Shown: positions 3,956 through 12,715, counted from the stretch's first letter. The stretch is 27,150 bases of DNA from Terriglobales bacterium (GCA_035604095.1 DATNJE010000191.1:1-27150); one strand, 5' to 3'. Program-made: numbers and translations. Notes: generated by a model not told the origin, from the sequence alone.

Positions 3956-4528
3956 ATGAATGACCGCACGGCCGCGTGGAGTTTACTAACCGAGTTCACC
4001 GCGTCGGAGAATCTGCGCAAGCACGCGCTCGCCGTCGAAGCCTGCATGCGCGCCTACGCCCGCAAGTTCACCGAGGACGAAGCCGTGTGGGGCGTCACCG
4101 GGCTGATCCACGATTTCGATTATGAAAAGTATCCGACGCCCGAAGAGCACCCGTTCGCGGGCAACAAAATCCTCGAAGAGCGCGGCTGGCCCGAGCCCGT
4201 CCGCCGGGCCATCCTCTCGCACGCGCAGTACTCGGGCGTCGCGCGCGTGAGCAACATGGAGAAAGCTCTGTTCGCCTGCGACGAACTGGCCGGGCTGATC
4301 ACCGCCACCGCGCTGGTGAAGCCGGGCAAATCGCTGGCCGAGGTGGACGCCAAGTCAGTCCGAAAGAAGATGAAGGACAAAGCCTTCGCCCGCAGCGTCA
4401 GCCGCGAAGACATCATCCAGGGCGCGCAGGAGCTGGGCGTGGACCTCGATGAGCACATCGCTTTCTGCATCGAGGCGATGAAGGGGATCGCCGGGGAACT
4501 GGGGCTGGCGGGGCAGACCGGCTCGTAG
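3956..4528 (+). CDS. HD/HDIG-domain metal-dependent phosphohydrolase
   Basis: LRKHALAVE...GLIHDFDYE, ILSHA and ACDELAG motifs; GGAAGG SD upstream. Confidence 0.9.
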   Translation: MNDRTAAWSLLTEFTASENLRKHALAVEACMRAYARKFTEDEAVWGVTGLIHDFDYEKYPTPEEHPFAGNKILEERGWPEPVRRAILSHAQYSGVARVSNMEKALFACDELAGLITATALVKPGKSLAEVDAKSVRKKMKDKAFARSVSREDIIQGAQELGVDLDEHIAFCIEAMKGIAGELGLAGQTGS

Positions 4529-4573
4529 CTGTTGGCTGTTGGCTCTTGGCTTTTGGCTCTTGGCTTTTGGCTC
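4529..4573 (+). repeat. heptamer tandem array (CTNTTGG)x6 starting right after the stop codon
   Basis: ctgttgg ctgttgg ctcttgg cttttgg ctcttgg cttttgg ctc. Confidence 0.9.
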
Positions 4574-4591
4574 GCTATGATTTGGCAATAA

Positions 4592-4726
4592 GCAGGGTGT
4601 CATTCTTCCGCGGAGCGAAGCGAAGCGGGAGAATCTGAGAATGCAGTTTGCGCAACCAGTACCGGTGGTCTTGGGTTATCGCCGGATCCTCCGCTCGCCT
4701 TCGGCTCGCGAAGGATGACACCTTGC
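4592..4726. repeat. REPIN-like element: two inverted TGTCAT-tagged REP halves with ~46 nt spacer
   Basis: gcagggTGTCATTCTTCCGC...GAGAATCT left half and GGATCCTCCGC...GAAGGATGACAccttgc right half. Same family as 11712-12005. Confidence 0.9.
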
Positions 4727-4772
4727 ATGGGTGGGATGGGGCCGCAAGGGCGACACCACCACCAGGCACGCC

Positions 4773-6735: not shown

Positions 6736-7518
6736 TTACTTGCCGCTCCAGTGTGGCTTGCGCTTTTCGAGGAACGCGGTGATGCCCTCGCGGAAGTCGT
6801 CGCTGGTGCGGATGCGCGCATTTTCCTGGACCGCGAGTTCGAGGCGGCGGTCGAGCAAATCCTTGGCGAAAGCCGAGAGCAGGCGCTTGGTGGCGCGCAG
6901 GGATGTAGGACTCGACTGCATGAGCGTCCCGGCCAGCTCGCGCGCCCATTCCATGAGCTGCTCGCCGGAGATGACGTCGGTGACGATCCCCAGGTGCTTG
7001 GCCTCTTCGGCGGAGAAGATGCGCCCGGTCATCAGCAGGTCGCGGGCGCGCTTCTCGCCGACCTGCTGGATGAGGAACGTGGAGACGATGGCCGGCAGAA
7101 AGCCGATCTTCACCTCGGTGTAGCCAAACTTGGCCTCATCGGATGCAACGGTGAAATCACAGAGCGTGGCGATACCGCATCCGCCGCCCATGGCTGCCCC
7201 GTTGACCGCCGCGATCGTGGGCTTGGGAAACTCGTAGATGGTGCGGAACAGCTTGGCCATGGTCTGCGAATCGACGAGATTCTGCGAGTGCGAGCGCGTG
7301 GTAACGGCGCGTAGGTTGTCGAGGTCCATGCCGGAGCAGAACGCCATGCCCGCGCCGGTGATGATGAGCACTTGCGCGTCGGAGCGCTCGACGGCGGCAA
7401 GCGCGAGAAACATCTCGTCAATCAGCTCATAGCTGATGGCGTTGCGCTTTTCCGGACGATTGAAGGCCAGGGTGGCGATGCAGTCGGATTCGGTGAGGAG
7501 GATGGTTCTTAGATCCAT
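6736..7518 (-). CDS. enoyl-CoA hydratase/crotonase, probably methylglutaconyl-CoA hydratase (LiuC-like)
   Basis: AFCSGMDL, AMGGGCG, TEVKIG; adjacent to HMG-CoA lyase and MCC-beta-like genes. Substrate is inferred from context. Confidence 0.85.
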   Translation of the reverse strand: MDLRTILLTESDCIATLAFNRPEKRNAISYELIDEMFLALAAVERSDAQVLIITGAGMAFCSGMDLDNLRAVTTRSHSQNLVDSQTMAKLFRTIYEFPKPTIAAVNGAAMGGGCGIATLCDFTVASDEAKFGYTEVKIGFLPAIVSTFLIQQVGEKRARDLLMTGRIFSAEEAKHLGIVTDVISGEQLMEWARELAGTLMQSSPTSLRATKRLLSAFAKDLLDRRLELAVQENARIRTSDDFREGITAFLEKRKPHWSGK

Positions 7519-7540
7519 GAGCGTCCAACAATCGCTGTGG

Positions 7541-7801
7541 CTATTCGTAAGCGTGGCGCCGGTGTGCGATCCGCGTCACATCCACTGTTTTCCCCGCGTC
7601 GTCAATCTCATATACAATACGGTAGTCACCAACGCGAACCCGCCATTCCTTATCGCCGCCTTTGAGTTTCCTGCAACCGGGAGGCCGAGGAGCCGCCGCG
7701 AGACGCTCCAGACGCGGCAGGATTCGCGCAATCACTTTCGCGGGCAGTTCATGCAGTTCTTTTGTCGCGCTTGCGGTTAAAGCGACGCGATAACTATTCA
7801 C
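7541..7801 (-). CDS. RelE/ParE-superfamily (RelE-like) toxin
   Basis: 86 aa; PRPPGCRKLKG..EWRVRVGDYRIVYEIDD....V.RIAHRR. GTG start overlaps the antitoxin stop. Confidence 0.9.
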   Translation of the reverse strand: MNSYRVALTASATKELHELPAKVIARILPRLERLAAAPRPPGCRKLKGGDKEWRVRVGDYRIVYEIDDAGKTVDVTRIAHRRHAYE

Positions 7802-7988
7802 GCGCGAGCTTGCCGCTCTTGATGAGGTCCGCTTTTACTTTGTCCAGTGGAATGCGCTTTTCGCGCCGCCGCGACCGGGAGACAAGCACATCCTCAATGT
7901 CTTGCCACAGTTCCCGATGCTTCTTCAGGTCGATTTGAACGGCCACCTTGCGGCCCTTGTCATCGGTCACGTATTGGATTCCGGTCAT
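7794..7988 (-). CDS. putative antitoxin, 64 aa
   Basis: MTGIQYVTDDKGRKVAVQIDLKKHRELWQDIEDVLVSRSRRREKRIPLDKVKADLIKSGKLARE; directly upstream of the toxin with an 8-bp overlap. Confidence 0.75.
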   Translation of the reverse strand: MTGIQYVTDDKGRKVAVQIDLKKHRELWQDIEDVLVSRSRRREKRIPLDKVKADLIKSGKLARE

Positions 7989-8068
7989 GGCTTCATTTTC
8001 TTTCAGGTGACGGTTTCCGTCTACTCCTATTTCGCTGCCCCCGGCAATTTCCAGGATTAAACCTGCTT

Positions 8069-8944
8069 CTACTGCTTCACCGGCGCGGCATGCTTGTCCG
8101 CGATGTCGGCATTCATCTTGAGCACCGAGTCGAGTGGTTTGCGGATGGGCAGAGCGACTTCGCGGCTGGCCAGCGCCTCCAGCACGACCTCCGTCGGGAT
8201 GTTGCCGACCAGCAGATCCTGCGCGAAGGGACATCCCCCCAATCCGCCGATGGCCGAATCGAAGCGGCGGCAACCGGCATCGTAAGCCGCCAGAATCTTC
8301 TCGGCAGCGTCGTCGCGCCGGCTGTGGAGGTGCACACCGACCTCCACCTCGGAGAACTGCGGGATCACGGACGACACCAGATCGTCGATGCGGTCGGCAT
8401 CGGCCAACCCCACGGTATCGGCCAGCGAGATGGTTTCGATGCCCATGTCGGTAAGCAGGCGAACGGCCTCGACCACTTCGCCTGAGTTCCAGGGCTCGCC
8501 GTACGGATTGCCGAAGGCCATGGAGATGTAGGCGACCACGCCCATGCCCACGCTGTCGGCGTCCTGCTTGATCTTCTCCAGCACCTCGATGGATTCTTCC
8601 AGCGTCTGGTGCACGTTGTTCTTGAGGAAAGTCTCGGAGACCGAATAGGGATAGCCGACCACGGTCACCGTCTCGCTGTTGATGGCGCGCTCCATGCCGC
8701 GCTCGTTGGCCACGATGCCGAGGATCTCCACGTCGTCGGGAGGATCGAGCTCGCGCAGCACCTCCTCGGAGTCGGCCATCTGCGGCACCGCTTTGGGCGA
8801 GACGAAAGAGACAGCATCCAGGTGCTTGAAGCCGGCGCCGATCAGCGCGCGCAGGTAGGCCACCTTCACCGCGGTGGGGATCACGCCCGCCAAGCCTTGC
8901 CAGGCGTCGCGCGGGCATTCGATCAGTTTGACGCGCTCAATCAT
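8069..8944 (-). CDS. hydroxymethylglutaryl-CoA lyase
   Basis: DRE-TIM ECPRDAWQG, SFVSPKAVPQMAD, HLH, GGLGGCPFA. Confidence 0.92.
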   Translation of the reverse strand: MIERVKLIECPRDAWQGLAGVIPTAVKVAYLRALIGAGFKHLDAVSFVSPKAVPQMADSEEVLRELDPPDDVEILGIVANERGMERAINSETVTVVGYPYSVSETFLKNNVHQTLEESIEVLEKIKQDADSVGMGVVAYISMAFGNPYGEPWNSGEVVEAVRLLTDMGIETISLADTVGLADADRIDDLVSSVIPQFSEVEVGVHLHSRRDDAAEKILAAYDAGCRRFDSAIGGLGGCPFAQDLLVGNIPTEVVLEALASREVALPIRKPLDSVLKMNADIADKHAAPVKQ

Positions 8945-10786: not shown

Positions 10787-11365
10787 CTAGGCGAGCCGCC
10801 CGATGGCGGCGGCCAGCGGATCGTCGGCTACGGCGTCGACCAGTCCGTAGAGCAACGCGTGAGCGGCATTCACCTTCTCGGCGGCGATGAACATCTCGGT
10901 GGCCCGCGCCCGCCCCACCAAGCGCGCCAGCCGCTGCGTGCCACCCCAGCCGGTGATCAGGCCGAGCGCAGCGCCGCGATGGCCGAAGATGGCATGTGGC
11001 GAGGCGATGCGGCAATCGCACGCCAGCACCAGGTCTAGGCCGCCTCCCATGCAGTAGCCGTTCACGGCCGCGATTACCAGCGTGGGGAACTCGTCAACGG
11101 CGTCGGTCATCATCTGCCCGGCCTTCGAAAAGACGAACGCCTCCGTGCCGTTGAGGGCAACAATCTCGTGGAGGTCGGCTCCGGCGGAAAAGAACTTCTG
11201 GTTGCCGGTGATGATGAGGGGGCGCGGGTCGAGGGCCAATTCGCGGACGGCGCTGGCGAGGGAGATGACGCAGGCGCGGGTAAGGCGGTTGGTGCCGTCC
11301 TGCGAGGTCAGGCGCAGGATGTCGCAGCGGTCCTTCGGCTCAATGATAAAACCAATCCCTGCCAT
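10787..11365 (-). CDS. enoyl-CoA hydratase/isomerase family protein (also the C-terminal part of the 10787-11701 fusion ORF)
   Basis: FFSAGADL, YCMGGGLDLVLACD, GLITGWGGTQRL. Own ATG at 11365. Confidence 0.85.
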   Translation of the reverse strand: MAGIGFIIEPKDRCDILRLTSQDGTNRLTRACVISLASAVRELALDPRPLIITGNQKFFSAGADLHEIVALNGTEAFVFSKAGQMMTDAVDEFPTLVIAAVNGYCMGGGLDLVLACDCRIASPHAIFGHRGAALGLITGWGGTQRLARLVGRARATEMFIAAEKVNAAHALLYGLVDAVADDPLAAAIGRLA

Positions 11366-11701
11366 GCTGTCATTCCTTCTTCGGGCAAGGCTCGGCGGGA
11401 GAACCTTGGCTTCTCGTCCGCAGCCTGCACTCAGGTCGCGCCATTTTGGATTCCTTGATTCGATCAGCGCAACCTTCTCGGCGCGGGTAAAGTGCTTGAG
11501 CTTCTTCTCTCGGGCGATCGCCGCCACGATGTTGGAGTACGTTTCAAAGTAAACCAGCTTGTGAACCCGATAGCGGGCCGTAAACGACCACGGGTGCACA
11601 TTGTGCTGGTGCTGCCAAACGCGCTTGTCCAAGTCCCTGGTCACACCGATGTAAAGGATACGGCGATGGCTGGCCATGATGTAGACGCAGTAAGACTTCA
11701 T
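11366..11701 (-). CDS. standalone GIY-YIG nuclease (YhbQ/UPF0213-like); no own stop codon, reads into the hydratase
   Basis: YCVYIM...LYIGVT, conserved R (KRVWQH), FTARY, AIAREKKLK, NPKWRDL in residues 1-90. Confidence 0.88.
11367..11406 (+). repeat. degenerate single REP half
   Basis: CTGTCATTCCTTCTTCGGGCAAGGCTCGGCGGGAGAACCT resembles the left half of the 11712/11882 units. Confidence 0.75.
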
Positions 11702-11711
11702 ATCACTTAAA

Positions 11712-11838
11712 CTGTCATTCTTCCGCCGACCGAAGCGAGGCGGGGAGAATCTGACGATACTGGCCGCACCACCGGCAGCGGTAGCCCAGGCATTCCCGTC
11801 AGATCCTCCGCTCGGCTTCGCCTCGCGAAGGATGACAG
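11712..11838. repeat. REPIN-like unit B1
   Basis: CTGTCATTCTTCCGCC...GAGAATCTGACG - inner spacer - CGTCAGATCCTCCGC...GAAGGATGACAG; long imperfect inverted repeat 10 bp upstream of the nuclease ATG. Confidence 0.93.
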
Positions 11839-11881
11839 CCTCGTTGGGGATAGAGTGTCTGCGACGCGTACTGCCTCCGTT

Positions 11882-12005
11882 CTGTCATTCTTCCGCCGAC
11901 CGAAGGGAGGCGGGAGAATCTGACGATGCTGGCCGCACCCGGCAGCGGTAGCCCAGGCATTCCCGTTAGATCCTCCGCTCGGCTTCGCCTCGCTAAGGAT
12001 GACAG
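11882..12005. repeat. REPIN-like unit B2, near-identical direct copy of B1
   Basis: Same halves and nearly the same inner spacer as B1; separated from B1 by 43 unique bp. Confidence 0.93.
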
Positions 12006-12013
12006 CTGGCGGT

Positions 12014-12715
12014 TCATTCCAGCCACCTCTCCAGCCCCGTCCCATCCTCCGTCAGCTCGAAGTCGCGGATACGGATGCCGCTGCCGATGATCCTGCCGGT
12101 CGCAAGATCGCGCGTCACGCGAGTTATCCACTGGTACCCAATATCGCACTTGTTCGCTGTGTACCAGGTCTGCGGCAGCACCGACACCTCTCCCGCCCTG
12201 GGATGGAGCACGAGGATAGCGCAGGCAGCGTCGTCGTTGCTGGTTGACGGGTAGGGGCCGACCAGCAGCAGTTCGTCGATGCCGCGGAATTCCGGCGCAA
12301 CTTCGACCGCATGCTTGCCGGCAGCGAGGAGAGAACTGATCTCGATTTCGGCCAGGGGCGCGGTCGCGGAGTAGATGCGGTCCTGGGAACGCTTGAACCA
12401 GCCGGCAACATCGCTCAAGGGGAACGCTGCCAACTGGTCGGGATCGAAGCACATCAGGCGCAGGTAGCCGGGCTCGGGACACCATATCCCCAGCCGCGAC
12501 TCGGGCACGACGAACGGGCTGCAATACGTATTCAGCGCCAGCAGCGCTGCGTTCGGCTCCTGCCGCCGGTGCAATGTGACCAGGCGCTCGATCTCAGCTT
12601 CGCTGTGGCAGGTCCAGGTGTAGCGCTGGCCGGAAGCGCCGGTGATTTCAGGGAAGGTCTGCCAGTACCACGGCGCCGGGCCGATGGTCTGCTCGATGAG
12701 TTGCTGTTGCCGGAT
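12014..12715 (-). CDS. hypothetical protein, start codon uncertain
   Basis: Frame open from 12748 to TGA 12014. Protein-like sequence (IEQTIGPAPWYWQTFPEI...) extends ~47 codons upstream of the first TTG (12574). Candidate ATC start at 12715 after GAGGA. Confidence 0.65.
   Translation of the reverse strand: MRQQQLIEQTIGPAPWYWQTFPEITGASGQRYTWTCHSEAEIERLVTLHRRQEPNAALLALNTYCSPFVVPESRLGIWCPEPGYLRLMCFDPDQLAAFPLSDVAGWFKRSQDRIYSATAPLAEIEISSLLAAGKHAVEVAPEFRGIDELLLVGPYPSTSNDDAACAILVLHPRAGEVSVLPQTWYTANKCDIGYQWITRVTRDLATGRIIGSGIRIRDFELTEDGTGLERWLE

What the first reader, a model, noticed from the sequence alone, without database searches (positions are those of the whole stretch)
11366..12006. Standalone GIY-YIG nuclease packaged in TGTC/CGTC-type REP palindromes: candidate RAYT-independent repeat-mobilising system
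Seen: a ~90-aa GIY-YIG domain has two ~125-bp REPIN-like hairpin units just upstream (10 bp from the ATG) and a degenerate REP half at its 3' end. The outermost halves form inverted termini GCTGTCAT(T)CCTT around ~640 bp. There is no transposase in the window and no direct target duplication; the flanks are inverted-complementary (GCCA / TGGC). Established: GTAG-type REP/REPINs are linked to RAYT HUH tyrosine transposases, and to my knowledge no dedicated mobiliser is established for CGTC-type REPs. Inference: this nuclease may recognise the hairpins and drive their spread or maintenance, as RAYTs do for REPINs.
Basis: partly seen in the sequence, partly recalled or inferred. Interest (0 to 1): 0.88.

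Follow-up and report, generated by a model that had tools for sequence, protein, structure and literature searches.

The report
Ssn nuclease gene with hairpin repeats
A small GIY-YIG nuclease gene sits among copies of a tagged DNA hairpin repeat that is scattered through this acidobacterial genome; the pairing is real, but it belongs to the Ssn nuclease / hairpin-repeat system published in 2025, so it is a new example of a known kind and not a new system.

Summary
A 92-100 aa GIY-YIG domain (minus strand, ATG at 11701) lies 10 bp from two ~125-bp hairpin dimers (11712-11839, 11882-12006). A degenerate repeat half (11367-11412) follows it.

The protein-repeat link is real and does not involve RAYT. 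Among 77 homologue loci from more than 15 phyla, 31 are bracketed by outward-facing (T/C)GTCAT-tagged hairpins, against 2 hits in about 150 control windows. This genome's eight Y1 (RAYT-like) transposase genes carry a different hairpin (TAG-CCC...GGG).

The pairing is already published. Chenal et al. 2025 (PMC11893778) showed that Ssn nucleases bind and cut single-stranded DNA at CGTC/TGTC-tagged hairpins (NTS/SRM) and noted the IS-like NTS-ssnA-NTS layout. This scan has also noted it on other DNA many times.

New here:
- a hairpin variant the published search pattern misses (long stem, tandem G·A, GAA triloop);
- three Ssn paralogues, each beside a different hairpin subfamily;
- long vertical residence under strong purifying selection (dN/dS 0.05-0.08);
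- presence/absence by replacement of whole spacers, not clean insertion.

Mobilisation by the nuclease remains unproven. Verdict: new member of a known kind, modest interest.

The parts
11402..11701 (-). Ssn-type GIY-YIG nuclease domain ORF. ATG at 11701; conserved domain to about 11426. There is no stop codon, so the frame continues into the hydratase.
   Evidence: PF01541 E 1.3e-9. 3734 homologues, all PF01541, mostly 87-120 aa. Residues Y7, Y17, R27, H31, E65 and N84 are conserved in alignment A1. 56% identity, E 7e-34, to a Gallionella protein flanked by literal NTS repeats. dN/dS 0.05-0.08 against the orthologues in G001 and G009.
11367..11412 (+). Degenerate R-type hairpin half at the 3' end of the nuclease gene, tag CTGTCAT at 11367-11373. 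It is translated as the linker between the nuclease and the hydratase.
   Evidence: 70% identity to the R-type half. It does not fold (z 0 and -0.9). It is further decayed and 9 nt shorter in G001.
11712..11839 (.). Hairpin dimer unit 1 (REPIN-like). R-type half 11712-11757 is read on the + strand and L-type half 11795-11839 on the - strand. Tags face outward.
11840..11881 (.). Spacer duplicated together with the units (period 167-170 bp).
   Evidence: A conserved spacer recurs between the units in G001 (3 units) and G009 (2 units).
11882..12006 (.). Hairpin dimer unit 2, 94.5% identical to unit 1. Its outer L half has a weakened stem.
   Evidence: Homology with relative L085 ends exactly at its outer tag.
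10787..11366 (-). Enoyl-CoA hydratase gene directly downstream, in the same frame as the nuclease ORF. Its first ~15 codons are specific to genomes that carry the cassette.
   Evidence: PF00378 E 6.9e-36. N-terminus MAGIGF... in G000, L085 and G001 against SEYFQIE... in the cassette-free G007 and G008.
4597..4729 (.). Solo copy of the same dimer family, between convergent genes.
   Evidence: At the same site, G001 has the same unit, G007 and G009 have different TGTCAT-tagged dimers, and G004 has none.

Best explanation
The ORF encodes a member of the Ssn family: single-domain GIY-YIG endonucleases that act on single-stranded DNA at a specific site. The surrounding repeats are its likely recognition sites. 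They are a lineage-specific variant of the CGTC/TGTC-tagged REP hairpins (NTS/SRM).

Mechanism, inferred from the characterised Neisseria, N. elongata, N. wadsworthii and Wolbachia enzymes and not shown here: when DNA is single-stranded (replication, repair, incoming DNA), each half folds into a hairpin. The monomeric nuclease binds the stem, reads the unpaired 5' tag, and hydrolyses that strand a few nucleotides 5' of the tag. Only one strand of each half is a substrate, so outward-facing halves place cuts at the two outer edges on opposite strands.

Shown here: this cassette has been inherited vertically within the genus for a long time with the protein under strong purifying selection. The two adjacent units arose by local tandem duplication. 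Cassettes and dimers come and go by replacement of whole intergenic spacers between conserved genes.

I put about 0.3-0.4 on the further step that the nuclease's nicks drive the copying and spread of its own hairpin family by recombination. The alternative is a host-serving role in recombination or DNA uptake.
For: Identity of the protein:
- PF01541 domain, catalytic residues conserved, about 90-aa single-domain relatives.
- 56% identity / E 7e-34 to a homologue bracketed by sequences that match the published NTS consensus literally.

Link between protein and hairpins:
- 31/77 homologue loci are bracketed by outward tagged hairpins, against 2 hits in about 150 control windows. Flanking inverted-repeat score is >=14 in 57% of loci against 1% of controls.
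- Outward orientation is twice as common as inward.
- Hairpin class clusters on the protein tree, and some clades mix phyla while sharing one hairpin class.
- In this genome the three paralogues sit next to three different hairpin subfamilies, each with other dispersed copies.
- 16 of 18 relatives with the nuclease have >=8 tagged hairpins. None of the 16 genomes of the sister family has either.

Literature: ssDNA-specific binding and cleavage at these repeats is shown for four homologues (PMC11893778).

History of this locus:
- The same cassette is present in L085, G001 and G009.
- dN/dS is 0.05-0.08 at dS 0.4-1.0.
- Unit number is 2 here and 3 in G001.
Against: - No biochemical test of this protein was possible.
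- The published SRM search pattern does not match the window's repeats (0 hits). It is not enriched in this genome either (19 hits against 18-30 in simulated sequence). It hits only 5 of 77 homologue loci. Assignment of the repeats therefore rests on shared architecture, not the literal motif.
- I could not compare the protein with N. meningitidis SsnA or with CDD cd10448 directly.
- The gene lacks its own stop codon, and the proximal upstream half faces inward. The local layout is not the canonical hairpin-gene-hairpin.
- The 3' half no longer folds.
- Two of the four orthologous copies are damaged: an internal deletion in L085 and a C-terminal truncation by a 2.3-kb insertion in G009.
Confidence: 0.8

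Rival explanations
1. Selfish propagation. The nuclease plus its hairpins is a mobile cassette, and the ~125-bp dimers are its gene-less derivatives. Nicks made by the nuclease at hairpin edges in single-stranded DNA start recombination or repair synthesis that copies the hairpins, and sometimes the gene, into new intergenic sites. This would be a hydrolytic-nuclease counterpart of REPIN/RAYT.
For: - Hairpin-gene-hairpin layout with tags outward in 31/77 loci and in this genome's C49 copy.
- The dimers share the same termini.
- Related proteins with the same hairpin class occur in different phyla.
- Different tagged dimers occupy the same intergenic site in sister species.
- One hairpin is nested in the apical loop of another.
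- Hairpin counts range from 0 to 165 among relatives and track presence of the nuclease.
- The RAYTs present use other hairpins.
Against: - No clean filled-versus-empty junction and no target duplication was found at any of the five sites compared; whole spacers differ.
- At this locus the polymorphism boundary lies inside the hydratase gene.
- The two units here are a tandem duplication.
- The gene has stayed at one locus under strong purifying selection for dS up to about 1.
- GIY-YIG enzymes hydrolyse DNA and have no known strand-transfer chemistry (established knowledge).
- Similarity between the unit interior and the 3' end of the gene is weak (p about 0.01-0.02 for two units, not for the third).
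Confidence: 0.33
2. Domesticated host function. The nuclease restricts or shapes recombination with single-stranded DNA that carries the hairpins (incoming DNA, replication or repair intermediates), as proposed for Neisseria. The hairpins are kept as marks, and their spread is due to other processes.
For: - In N. meningitidis SsnA lowers integration of NTS-flanked transforming DNA (PMC11893778).
- Strong purifying selection and long vertical residence at one locus.
- The locus units are 82-91% identical to their counterparts in G001 and G009, while the raw synonymous difference in the adjacent gene is about 40%. This suggests constraint or gene conversion.
- Polymorphic cassettes are exchanged by recombination in the flanking genes.
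Against: - Nothing is known here about natural competence in this lineage.
- The gene is lost or decayed in close relatives without obvious replacement at the locus (G007, G008, L085).
- Several paralogues with different hairpin subfamilies in one genome look more like competing elements than one host system.
Confidence: 0.3
3. Incidental association. The hairpins are ordinary RNA-level elements (terminators or mRNA stabilisers) that pile up in intergenic DNA and merely happen to lie next to a small nuclease gene.
For: The hairpins lie mostly after stop codons and between convergent genes. Di Nocera et al. 2013 note that REPs are mostly downstream of genes (PMC3733652).
Against: - The association is orientation-specific and about 20-fold above nearby control windows across phyla.
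- Hairpin type follows the protein tree.
- Published direct binding and cleavage.
- No terminator-like T tracts in the region.
Confidence: 0.04

Closest known systems
Ssn nucleases with NTS/SRM hairpin repeats (SsnA of Neisseria meningitidis; Chenal et al. 2025, Nat Commun 16:2388, PMC11893778)
   Same: - Single-domain GIY-YIG protein of about 94 aa.
- The gene is flanked by inverted hairpin repeats that carry a (C/T)GTCAT 5' tag, a stem that starts with AT, and a C-starting tail.
- The same repeat is dispersed through the genome.
- Wide phyletic spread.
- Homologues 50-56% identical to the window protein are flanked by literal or near-literal NTS (L024, L082, L048, L055, L071).
   Different: - The hairpins here have 9-11 bp stems plus a tandem G-A internal loop, a 2-3 bp GC stem and a GAA triloop. 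The published degenerate SRM pattern misses them.
- The repeats are organised as ~125-bp dimers, duplicated in tandem.
- The gene has no stop codon and reads into the next gene.
- The host is an acidobacterium (Terriglobales-like) with at least three paralogues.
- Activity is untested here.
CGTC/TGTC-tagged REP superfamily (Di Nocera, De Gregorio and Rocco 2013, PMC3733652)
   Same: A terminal CGTC tag that often changes to TGTC, a stem with A-T at the first two positions, head-to-head dimers, and location downstream of genes.
   Different: The published families have 8-9 bp stems with 4-5 nt loops and CCA-like tails. Here the apical part is 12-13 nt with its own mini-hairpin and the tail is CTGA. 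That paper concluded these repeats lack a dedicated enzyme.
REP/REPIN elements with RAYT (TnpA-REP, Y1 HUH transposases)
   Same: - Short hairpin repeats in inverted dimers that flank a single small enzyme gene.
- The enzyme acts on single-stranded hairpins.
- One gene serves many gene-less copies.
- This genome has such a system in parallel (8 Y1 genes with TAG-CCC...GGG hairpins).
   Different: - The enzyme here is a hydrolytic GIY-YIG nuclease, not a HUH tyrosine transposase, so it has no covalent intermediate or strand-transfer chemistry.
- The tag differs (TGTC, not GTAG).
- The two hairpin sets do not mix around their genes.
Free-standing GIY-YIG homing endonuclease genes (for example phage T4 Seg proteins, I-TevI)
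   Same: The GIY-YIG catalytic core, selfish-gene-like distribution, and spread that would depend on host recombination after a nuclease cut.
   Different: Homing enzymes carry a separate DNA-binding domain and cut double-stranded DNA at long asymmetric sites in cognate empty alleles. Here there is a bare catalytic domain, a hairpin target in single-stranded DNA, and many dispersed targets.

Membership tests
Ssn nuclease family (Chenal et al. 2025) | Single-domain GIY-YIG protein of about 90-100 residues with no extra DNA-binding domain | tested here: met
   PF01541 covers residues 4-74 and no other domain was found within the first 100 residues. Homologues are 87-120 aa. Caveat: the ORF lacks a stop and continues into the hydratase.
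Ssn nuclease family (Chenal et al. 2025) | Conserved catalytic residues of the GIY-YIG core (two Tyr, Arg, His, Glu, Asn) | tested here: met
   Y7, Y17, R27, H31, E65 and N84 are invariant or >=90% conserved in 25 homologues and are present in the window protein. Their catalytic roles are assigned from established knowledge of GIY-YIG enzymes.
Ssn nuclease family (Chenal et al. 2025) | Homology to N. meningitidis SsnA (paper's criterion: tblastn E < 1e-10) / CDD cd10448 assignment | not testable with these tools
   Neither the Neisseria sequence nor CDD was available, and no Neisseria-named hit appeared among the top 120 hits. Proxy: 56% identity, E 7e-34, to a Gallionella protein whose gene is flanked by literal NTS. 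Only a weak match (E 0.03) to the UPF0213 structure 1zg2, so it is not that sister group.
Ssn nuclease family (Chenal et al. 2025) | Gene flanked by repeats matching the published SRM search pattern HGTCWY N0-2 YYVSBRH N0-5 WNVSBRG N0-2 RNCYNB | tested here: not met
   0 matches in the window. 19 in the genome against 18-30 in Markov-simulated genomes. Only 5 of 77 homologue loci have a match within 300 bp.
Ssn nuclease family (Chenal et al. 2025) | Gene flanked by, and genome populated with, 20-50 nt hairpin repeats that carry the oriented (C/T)GTCAT tag | tested here: met
   Tagged hairpins lie 10 nt upstream of this gene and at its 3' end. 77 in the genome against 1 in the reversed control. 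The same architecture brackets 31/77 homologues.
Ssn nuclease family (Chenal et al. 2025) | Binds and cuts only single-stranded DNA next to its hairpin, on one strand only | not testable with these tools
   Needs purified protein and oligonucleotide assays.
REP/REPIN-RAYT system | Y1 HUH (RAYT) transposase gene flanked by the repeats | tested here: not met
   No PF01797 match on the window's contig. The 8 Y1 genes elsewhere in the genome are flanked by a different hairpin (6 of 8 within 68-97 bp), and no strict TGTCAT hairpin lies within 2.7 kb of them.
REP/REPIN-RAYT system | GTAG tag on the repeat | tested here: not met
   The tag here is TGTC(AT).
CGTC-tagged REP superfamily (Di Nocera 2013) | Terminal CGTC/TGTC tag followed by a stem that starts with A-T | tested here: met
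   definition
CGTC-tagged REP superfamily (Di Nocera 2013) | Stem of 8-9 bp with a loop of 4-5 nt | tested here: not met
   Stems are 9-11 bp with a 12-13 nt apical part that forms its own GAA-triloop mini-hairpin.
Insertion sequence / MITE pair | Terminal inverted repeats plus target-site duplication and clean filled/empty alleles | tested here: not met
   Inverted termini are present. There is no duplication, and none of the five sites compared gave a clean junction.

The most novel reading that the evidence does not exclude
Ssn nucleases may be the long-missing propagating enzyme of the CGTC/TGTC-tagged REP superfamily. Strand-specific nicks at hairpin edges in single-stranded DNA would recruit host recombination or repair synthesis, which copies hairpin dimers and occasionally the gene. 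This would be a second, chemically different repeat-spreading system running in parallel with RAYT/GTAG REPINs, here within one genome.
Probability: 0.3. Interest if true: 0.75.

Novelty: new member of a known kind. Interest (0 to 1): 0.3.

Why it matters
The locus confirms that the Ssn/hairpin pairing extends to Acidobacteriota. It also shows that the published motif under-detects the commonest hairpin variant around close homologues: tandem G-A plus a GNA triloop, seen at most of the 77 loci examined. That matters for anyone mining Ssn enzymes as programmable single-stranded-DNA cutters.

The genome carries two non-overlapping repeat/enzyme systems, RAYT with GTAG-like hairpins and Ssn with TGTC hairpins. 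It is therefore a natural place to test whether Ssn spreads its repeats, which the 2025 paper left open.

As a discovery claim, though, the core idea is already in print.

Tried and rejected
- Published SRM pattern: run on the window, the genome and 77 homologue loci. It does not describe these repeats, so I used an architecture-based pattern with a reversed-sequence control instead.
- Direct link to N. meningitidis SsnA: there is no solved Ssn structure by sequence, no NCBIfam model, the paper's supplements are not held, and no Neisseria-named hit was among the top 120 relatives of the NTS-flanked Gallionella protein.
- First broad alignment (A1): too diverse for the locus search, so I used a narrower one (A2).
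- First permissive tag+hairpin scan: too noisy (355 against 168 in the control), so I dropped it.
- Clean empty sites: sought at five places, namely the cassette, the solo unit at 4597-4729, a second cassette site at 7519-8068, and the units on contigs C247 and C72. All show wholesale spacer turnover.
- The dimers as internal-deletion derivatives of the cassette: only weak interior similarity, so left open.
- GCCA/TGGC flanks as meaningful: rejected.
- Sigma-70 promoter and intrinsic terminator scans of 11250-12150: nothing found.
- The 2.3-kb insertion in G009 between the nuclease and the hydratase: its 399-aa ORF has no Pfam match.

Full report
**What is in the sequence**

On the minus strand an ORF starts at ATG 11701. 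Its first ~92 residues are a GIY-YIG domain (Pfam PF01541, E 1.3e-9). Ten nucleotides upstream of the ATG begin two ~125-bp units, 11712-11839 and 11882-12006. They are 94.5% identical and separated by a 42-nt spacer.

Each unit is an inverted pair of two related halves, and the tag TGTCAT faces outward at both ends. As single-stranded DNA, unit 1 folds as one long hairpin on both strands (z -4.2 and -4.5). Unit 2, folded on one strand only, does not stand out from shuffles (z -1.3). Three of the four halves fold alone as a 9-11 bp stem, a 2x2 G-A/G-A internal loop, a 2-3 bp GC stem and a GAA triloop. The R half of unit 1 gives a stem with a large open loop instead. Only one half beats its shuffles clearly (z -4.2).

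A third, decayed half with the same tag lies at 11367-11412. It no longer folds.

One feature it did not stress: the nuclease ORF has no stop codon. It runs through the decayed half straight into the enoyl-CoA hydratase gene (PF00378) in the same frame, giving a 304-aa ORF.

**More than chance**

The assembly is a 2.7-Mb, 376-contig, 69%-complete genome of 63% G+C. The best protein hits point to Terriglobales / Acidobacteriaceae.

BLAST finds about ten copies of the unit on eight other contigs, plus a solo copy in the window at 4597-4729. I then used a stricter architecture test: [CT]GTC, a stem opening ATYCY, 6-46 nt, a closing RGRAT that pairs with the opening, then Y. This finds 77 hairpins, against 1 in the reversed (not complemented) genome.

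The hairpins fall into subfamilies that share tag, stem start and tail:
- a short type of about 27 nt (about 14 copies);
- the window's medium L and R types (about 18 halves);
- a long type of about 58 nt (about 30 copies, mostly in inverted pairs);
- a fourth type beginning TGTCATCCTGAGCGACCGAGG.

**The nuclease-hairpin link is specific**

The genome has three paralogues of this nuclease.
- The copy on contig C49 is bracketed by two perfect inverted short-type hairpins with tags outward.
- The copy on C288 is followed by the fourth type.
- The window copy sits among the medium type.

Across public genomes, 592 candidate stretches encoded relatives and I examined the best 80, from more than 15 phyla, at 47-61% identity. 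A flanking inverted repeat scoring >=14 occurs in 57% of 77 usable loci, against 1% of shifted controls. Tagged, properly paired hairpins in outward orientation lie upstream in 40, downstream in 40 and on both sides in 31 of 77. About 150 control windows 1 kb away gave 2 hits. Inward-facing copies are half as frequent.

On a tree of 79 of these proteins (poorly resolved, 93 columns), the hairpin class changes 25 times, against 34.4 +/- 1.6 in 1000 label shuffles. The split between G-A-type and NTS-like hairpins changes 5 times, against 10.1. Host phylum also clusters on that tree (30 against 44), so part of this signal is shared ancestry. Even so, several clades join different phyla that carry the same hairpin class.

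Among 40 relatives, 16 of the 18 with a nuclease match have >=8 pattern hits (up to 165), and the backward control gave 0 everywhere. Of the 22 without a match, only two incomplete assemblies reach that level. The whole sister family (16 genomes) has neither feature. These genomes are kin, so the tally is descriptive only. G011, an unpublished genome, is one of the 18; leaving it out changes nothing.

**It is independent of RAYT**

The genome does contain Y1 (IS200/RAYT-type) transposase genes: eight matches to PF01797, and 13 each in G001 and G009. Six of the eight have a different hairpin, TAG-CCCnnnn...nnnnGGG, 68-97 bp away. That hairpin occurs 41 times in the genome, against 6 in the control. 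None of the eight has a strict TGTCAT hairpin within 2.7 kb, although one has a loose fourth-type copy just downstream. Conversely, no nuclease paralogue has a TAG-CCC hairpin within 8 kb. Two repeat/enzyme systems therefore coexist without mixing.

**It is already known**

They define the Ssn family: single-domain GIY-YIG proteins of about 94 aa, CDD cd10448.
- They show that SsnA of N. meningitidis and three homologues bind a hairpin repeat (NTS, consensus CGTCATTCCCGCGMAVGCGGGAATCYRG, the old dRS3) only as single-stranded DNA.
- The enzymes cut only one strand, a few nucleotides 5' of the repeat.
- 71% of homologue loci have at least one related motif (SRM), and 42% have one on both sides.
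- They state that NTS-ssnA-NTS looks like an insertion sequence and compare it with RAYT/REP.

dRS3 is the CGTC-1 family of Di Nocera et al. 2013 (PMC3733652).

The window protein is 56% identical (E 7e-34) to a Gallionella protein whose gene is flanked by a literal NTS. Other homologues at about 50% identity carry near-literal NTS. I found no other paper on the subject. The scan itself holds hundreds of notes on the same pairing in other genomes.

**How this case differs**

The published degenerate SRM pattern does not match the window's repeats. It is not enriched in this genome (19 hits against 18-30 simulated), and it hits only 5 of the 77 homologue loci. The dominant hairpin around close homologues is tag-ATYCY-GA-GC-GNA-GC-GA-RGRAT-C. 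The window's version extends the stem. Membership of the repeats thus rests on shared architecture. Membership of the protein rests on homology by proxy, because I could obtain neither the Neisseria sequence nor CDD.

**History of the locus**

A related assembly (L085, about 90% identical) has the same two units, nuclease, decayed half and hydratase. Its nuclease has lost about 50 nt and is a pseudogene, and homology with the window stops exactly at the outer tag of unit 2.

G001 (85%) has three units with a conserved spacer, so the array grows by tandem duplication with a 167-170 bp period. Its nuclease is intact and again lacks a stop, in frame with the hydratase, even though the linker is 9 nt shorter. 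In G009 the nuclease is truncated after NPKWR by a 2.3-kb insertion.

G007 has the closest flanks (93.7% and 89.3%) and lacks the cassette altogether. Homology breaks at window 11319, inside the hydratase, whose first ~15 codons differ (SEYFQIE... against MAGIGF...), and resumes at 12013. G008 has the SEYFQIE form directly beside the mutase small-subunit gene. The polymorphic block is therefore bounded by recombination points in or next to the neighbouring genes, not by the repeat ends.

Orthologous nuclease copies give dN/dS of 0.05-0.08 at dS 0.4-1.0. This indicates a long vertical stay under strong purifying selection. The locus units are 82-91% identical to their counterparts in G001 and G009, more than the ~60% raw identity at synonymous sites in the adjacent gene. 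That suggests constraint or gene conversion on the hairpins.

**Other sites**

Between the HMG-CoA lyase-like gene (8069-8944) and the second hydratase (6736-7518) the genomes differ:
- the window has a ParE/RelB toxin-antitoxin pair;
- G007, G001 and G002 have a second, canonical Ssn cassette, with one hairpin 6 nt before the ATG and the other overlapping the ORF end;
- L085 has only a 95-nt spacer.

At the solo-unit site (4597-4729), G001 has the same unit, G007 and G009 have different tagged dimers, and G004 has none.

At the site of the unit on contig C247, G007 has a 3-nt spacer where this genome has 211 nt. G001 has another tagged dimer there, and G009 has the same unit with a further hairpin nested in its apical loop.

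At none of the five sites is there a clean filled/empty junction or a target duplication. Tagged dimers clearly turn over, but how they do so cannot be read from these comparisons.

**Conclusion**

The stretch is an Ssn-type nuclease gene with a lineage-specific variant of its tagged hairpin repeats. My confidence in that is about 0.8.

The biochemical mechanism is inferred from characterised homologues: hairpin binding in single-stranded DNA, with a strand-specific cut just 5' of the tag.

The biological role is open. The candidates are spreading its own repeats, about 0.3, and a host-serving role in recombination, about 0.3.

Noticed in passing
window 10787-11701 (-): The nuclease ORF has no stop codon and is in frame with the enoyl-CoA hydratase (304-aa ORF). 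The same is true in G001, although its linker is 9 nt shorter and diverged. This could be chance (about 0.2 per genome), or the fusion protein may really be made. The hairpin end GAAGGAATGACAGC just before the hydratase ATG also looks like a ribosome-binding site.
   Followed up: partly
window 7541-7988 (-): A ParE-family toxin (PF05016, E 8.6e-14) and a RelB-like antitoxin occupy the spacer between the HMG-CoA lyase-like gene and a second hydratase. Sister genomes G007, G001 and G002 carry a second Ssn cassette at exactly this site, and L085 has only a 95-nt spacer. The site is a hot spot for small selfish modules.
   Followed up: yes
genome contigs C2, C364, C228, C308 (e.g. L112): Eight Y1 (RAYT/IS200-type) transposase genes, six of them flanked at 68-97 bp by TAG-CCCnnnn...nnnnGGG hairpins (41 copies in the genome against 6 in the control). 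This is a separate GTAG-like REP/RAYT system alongside the Ssn/TGTC system.
   Followed up: partly
genome contig C319:2521-3055 (L116): One hairpin dimer is split by about 400 bp that encodes the C-terminal part of an IS110-family transposase (PF02371, 22.3 bits). IS110-type elements are known to target REP sequences.
   Followed up: partly
L126 (G009:C1:3838130-3838260): A tagged hairpin carries another hairpin element nested in its apical loop. The long (~58-nt) hairpin subfamily of this genome may have arisen this way.
   Followed up: no
window 4527-4575; L085:7585-7680; L090 (G007:C7:7050-7090): Spacers next to the tagged dimers often hold arrays of 7-mer units (e.g. GTTGGCT, CCAGTTG, AGTACCG) and their inverted copies. 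The unit differs from site to site and from genome to genome.
   Followed up: no
window 12014-12574 (-): A 186-aa ORF with no Pfam match lies between the cassette and the mutase small subunit. It is present in G007 and weakly in G015 but absent in G008, so it is part of the variable block.
   Followed up: partly
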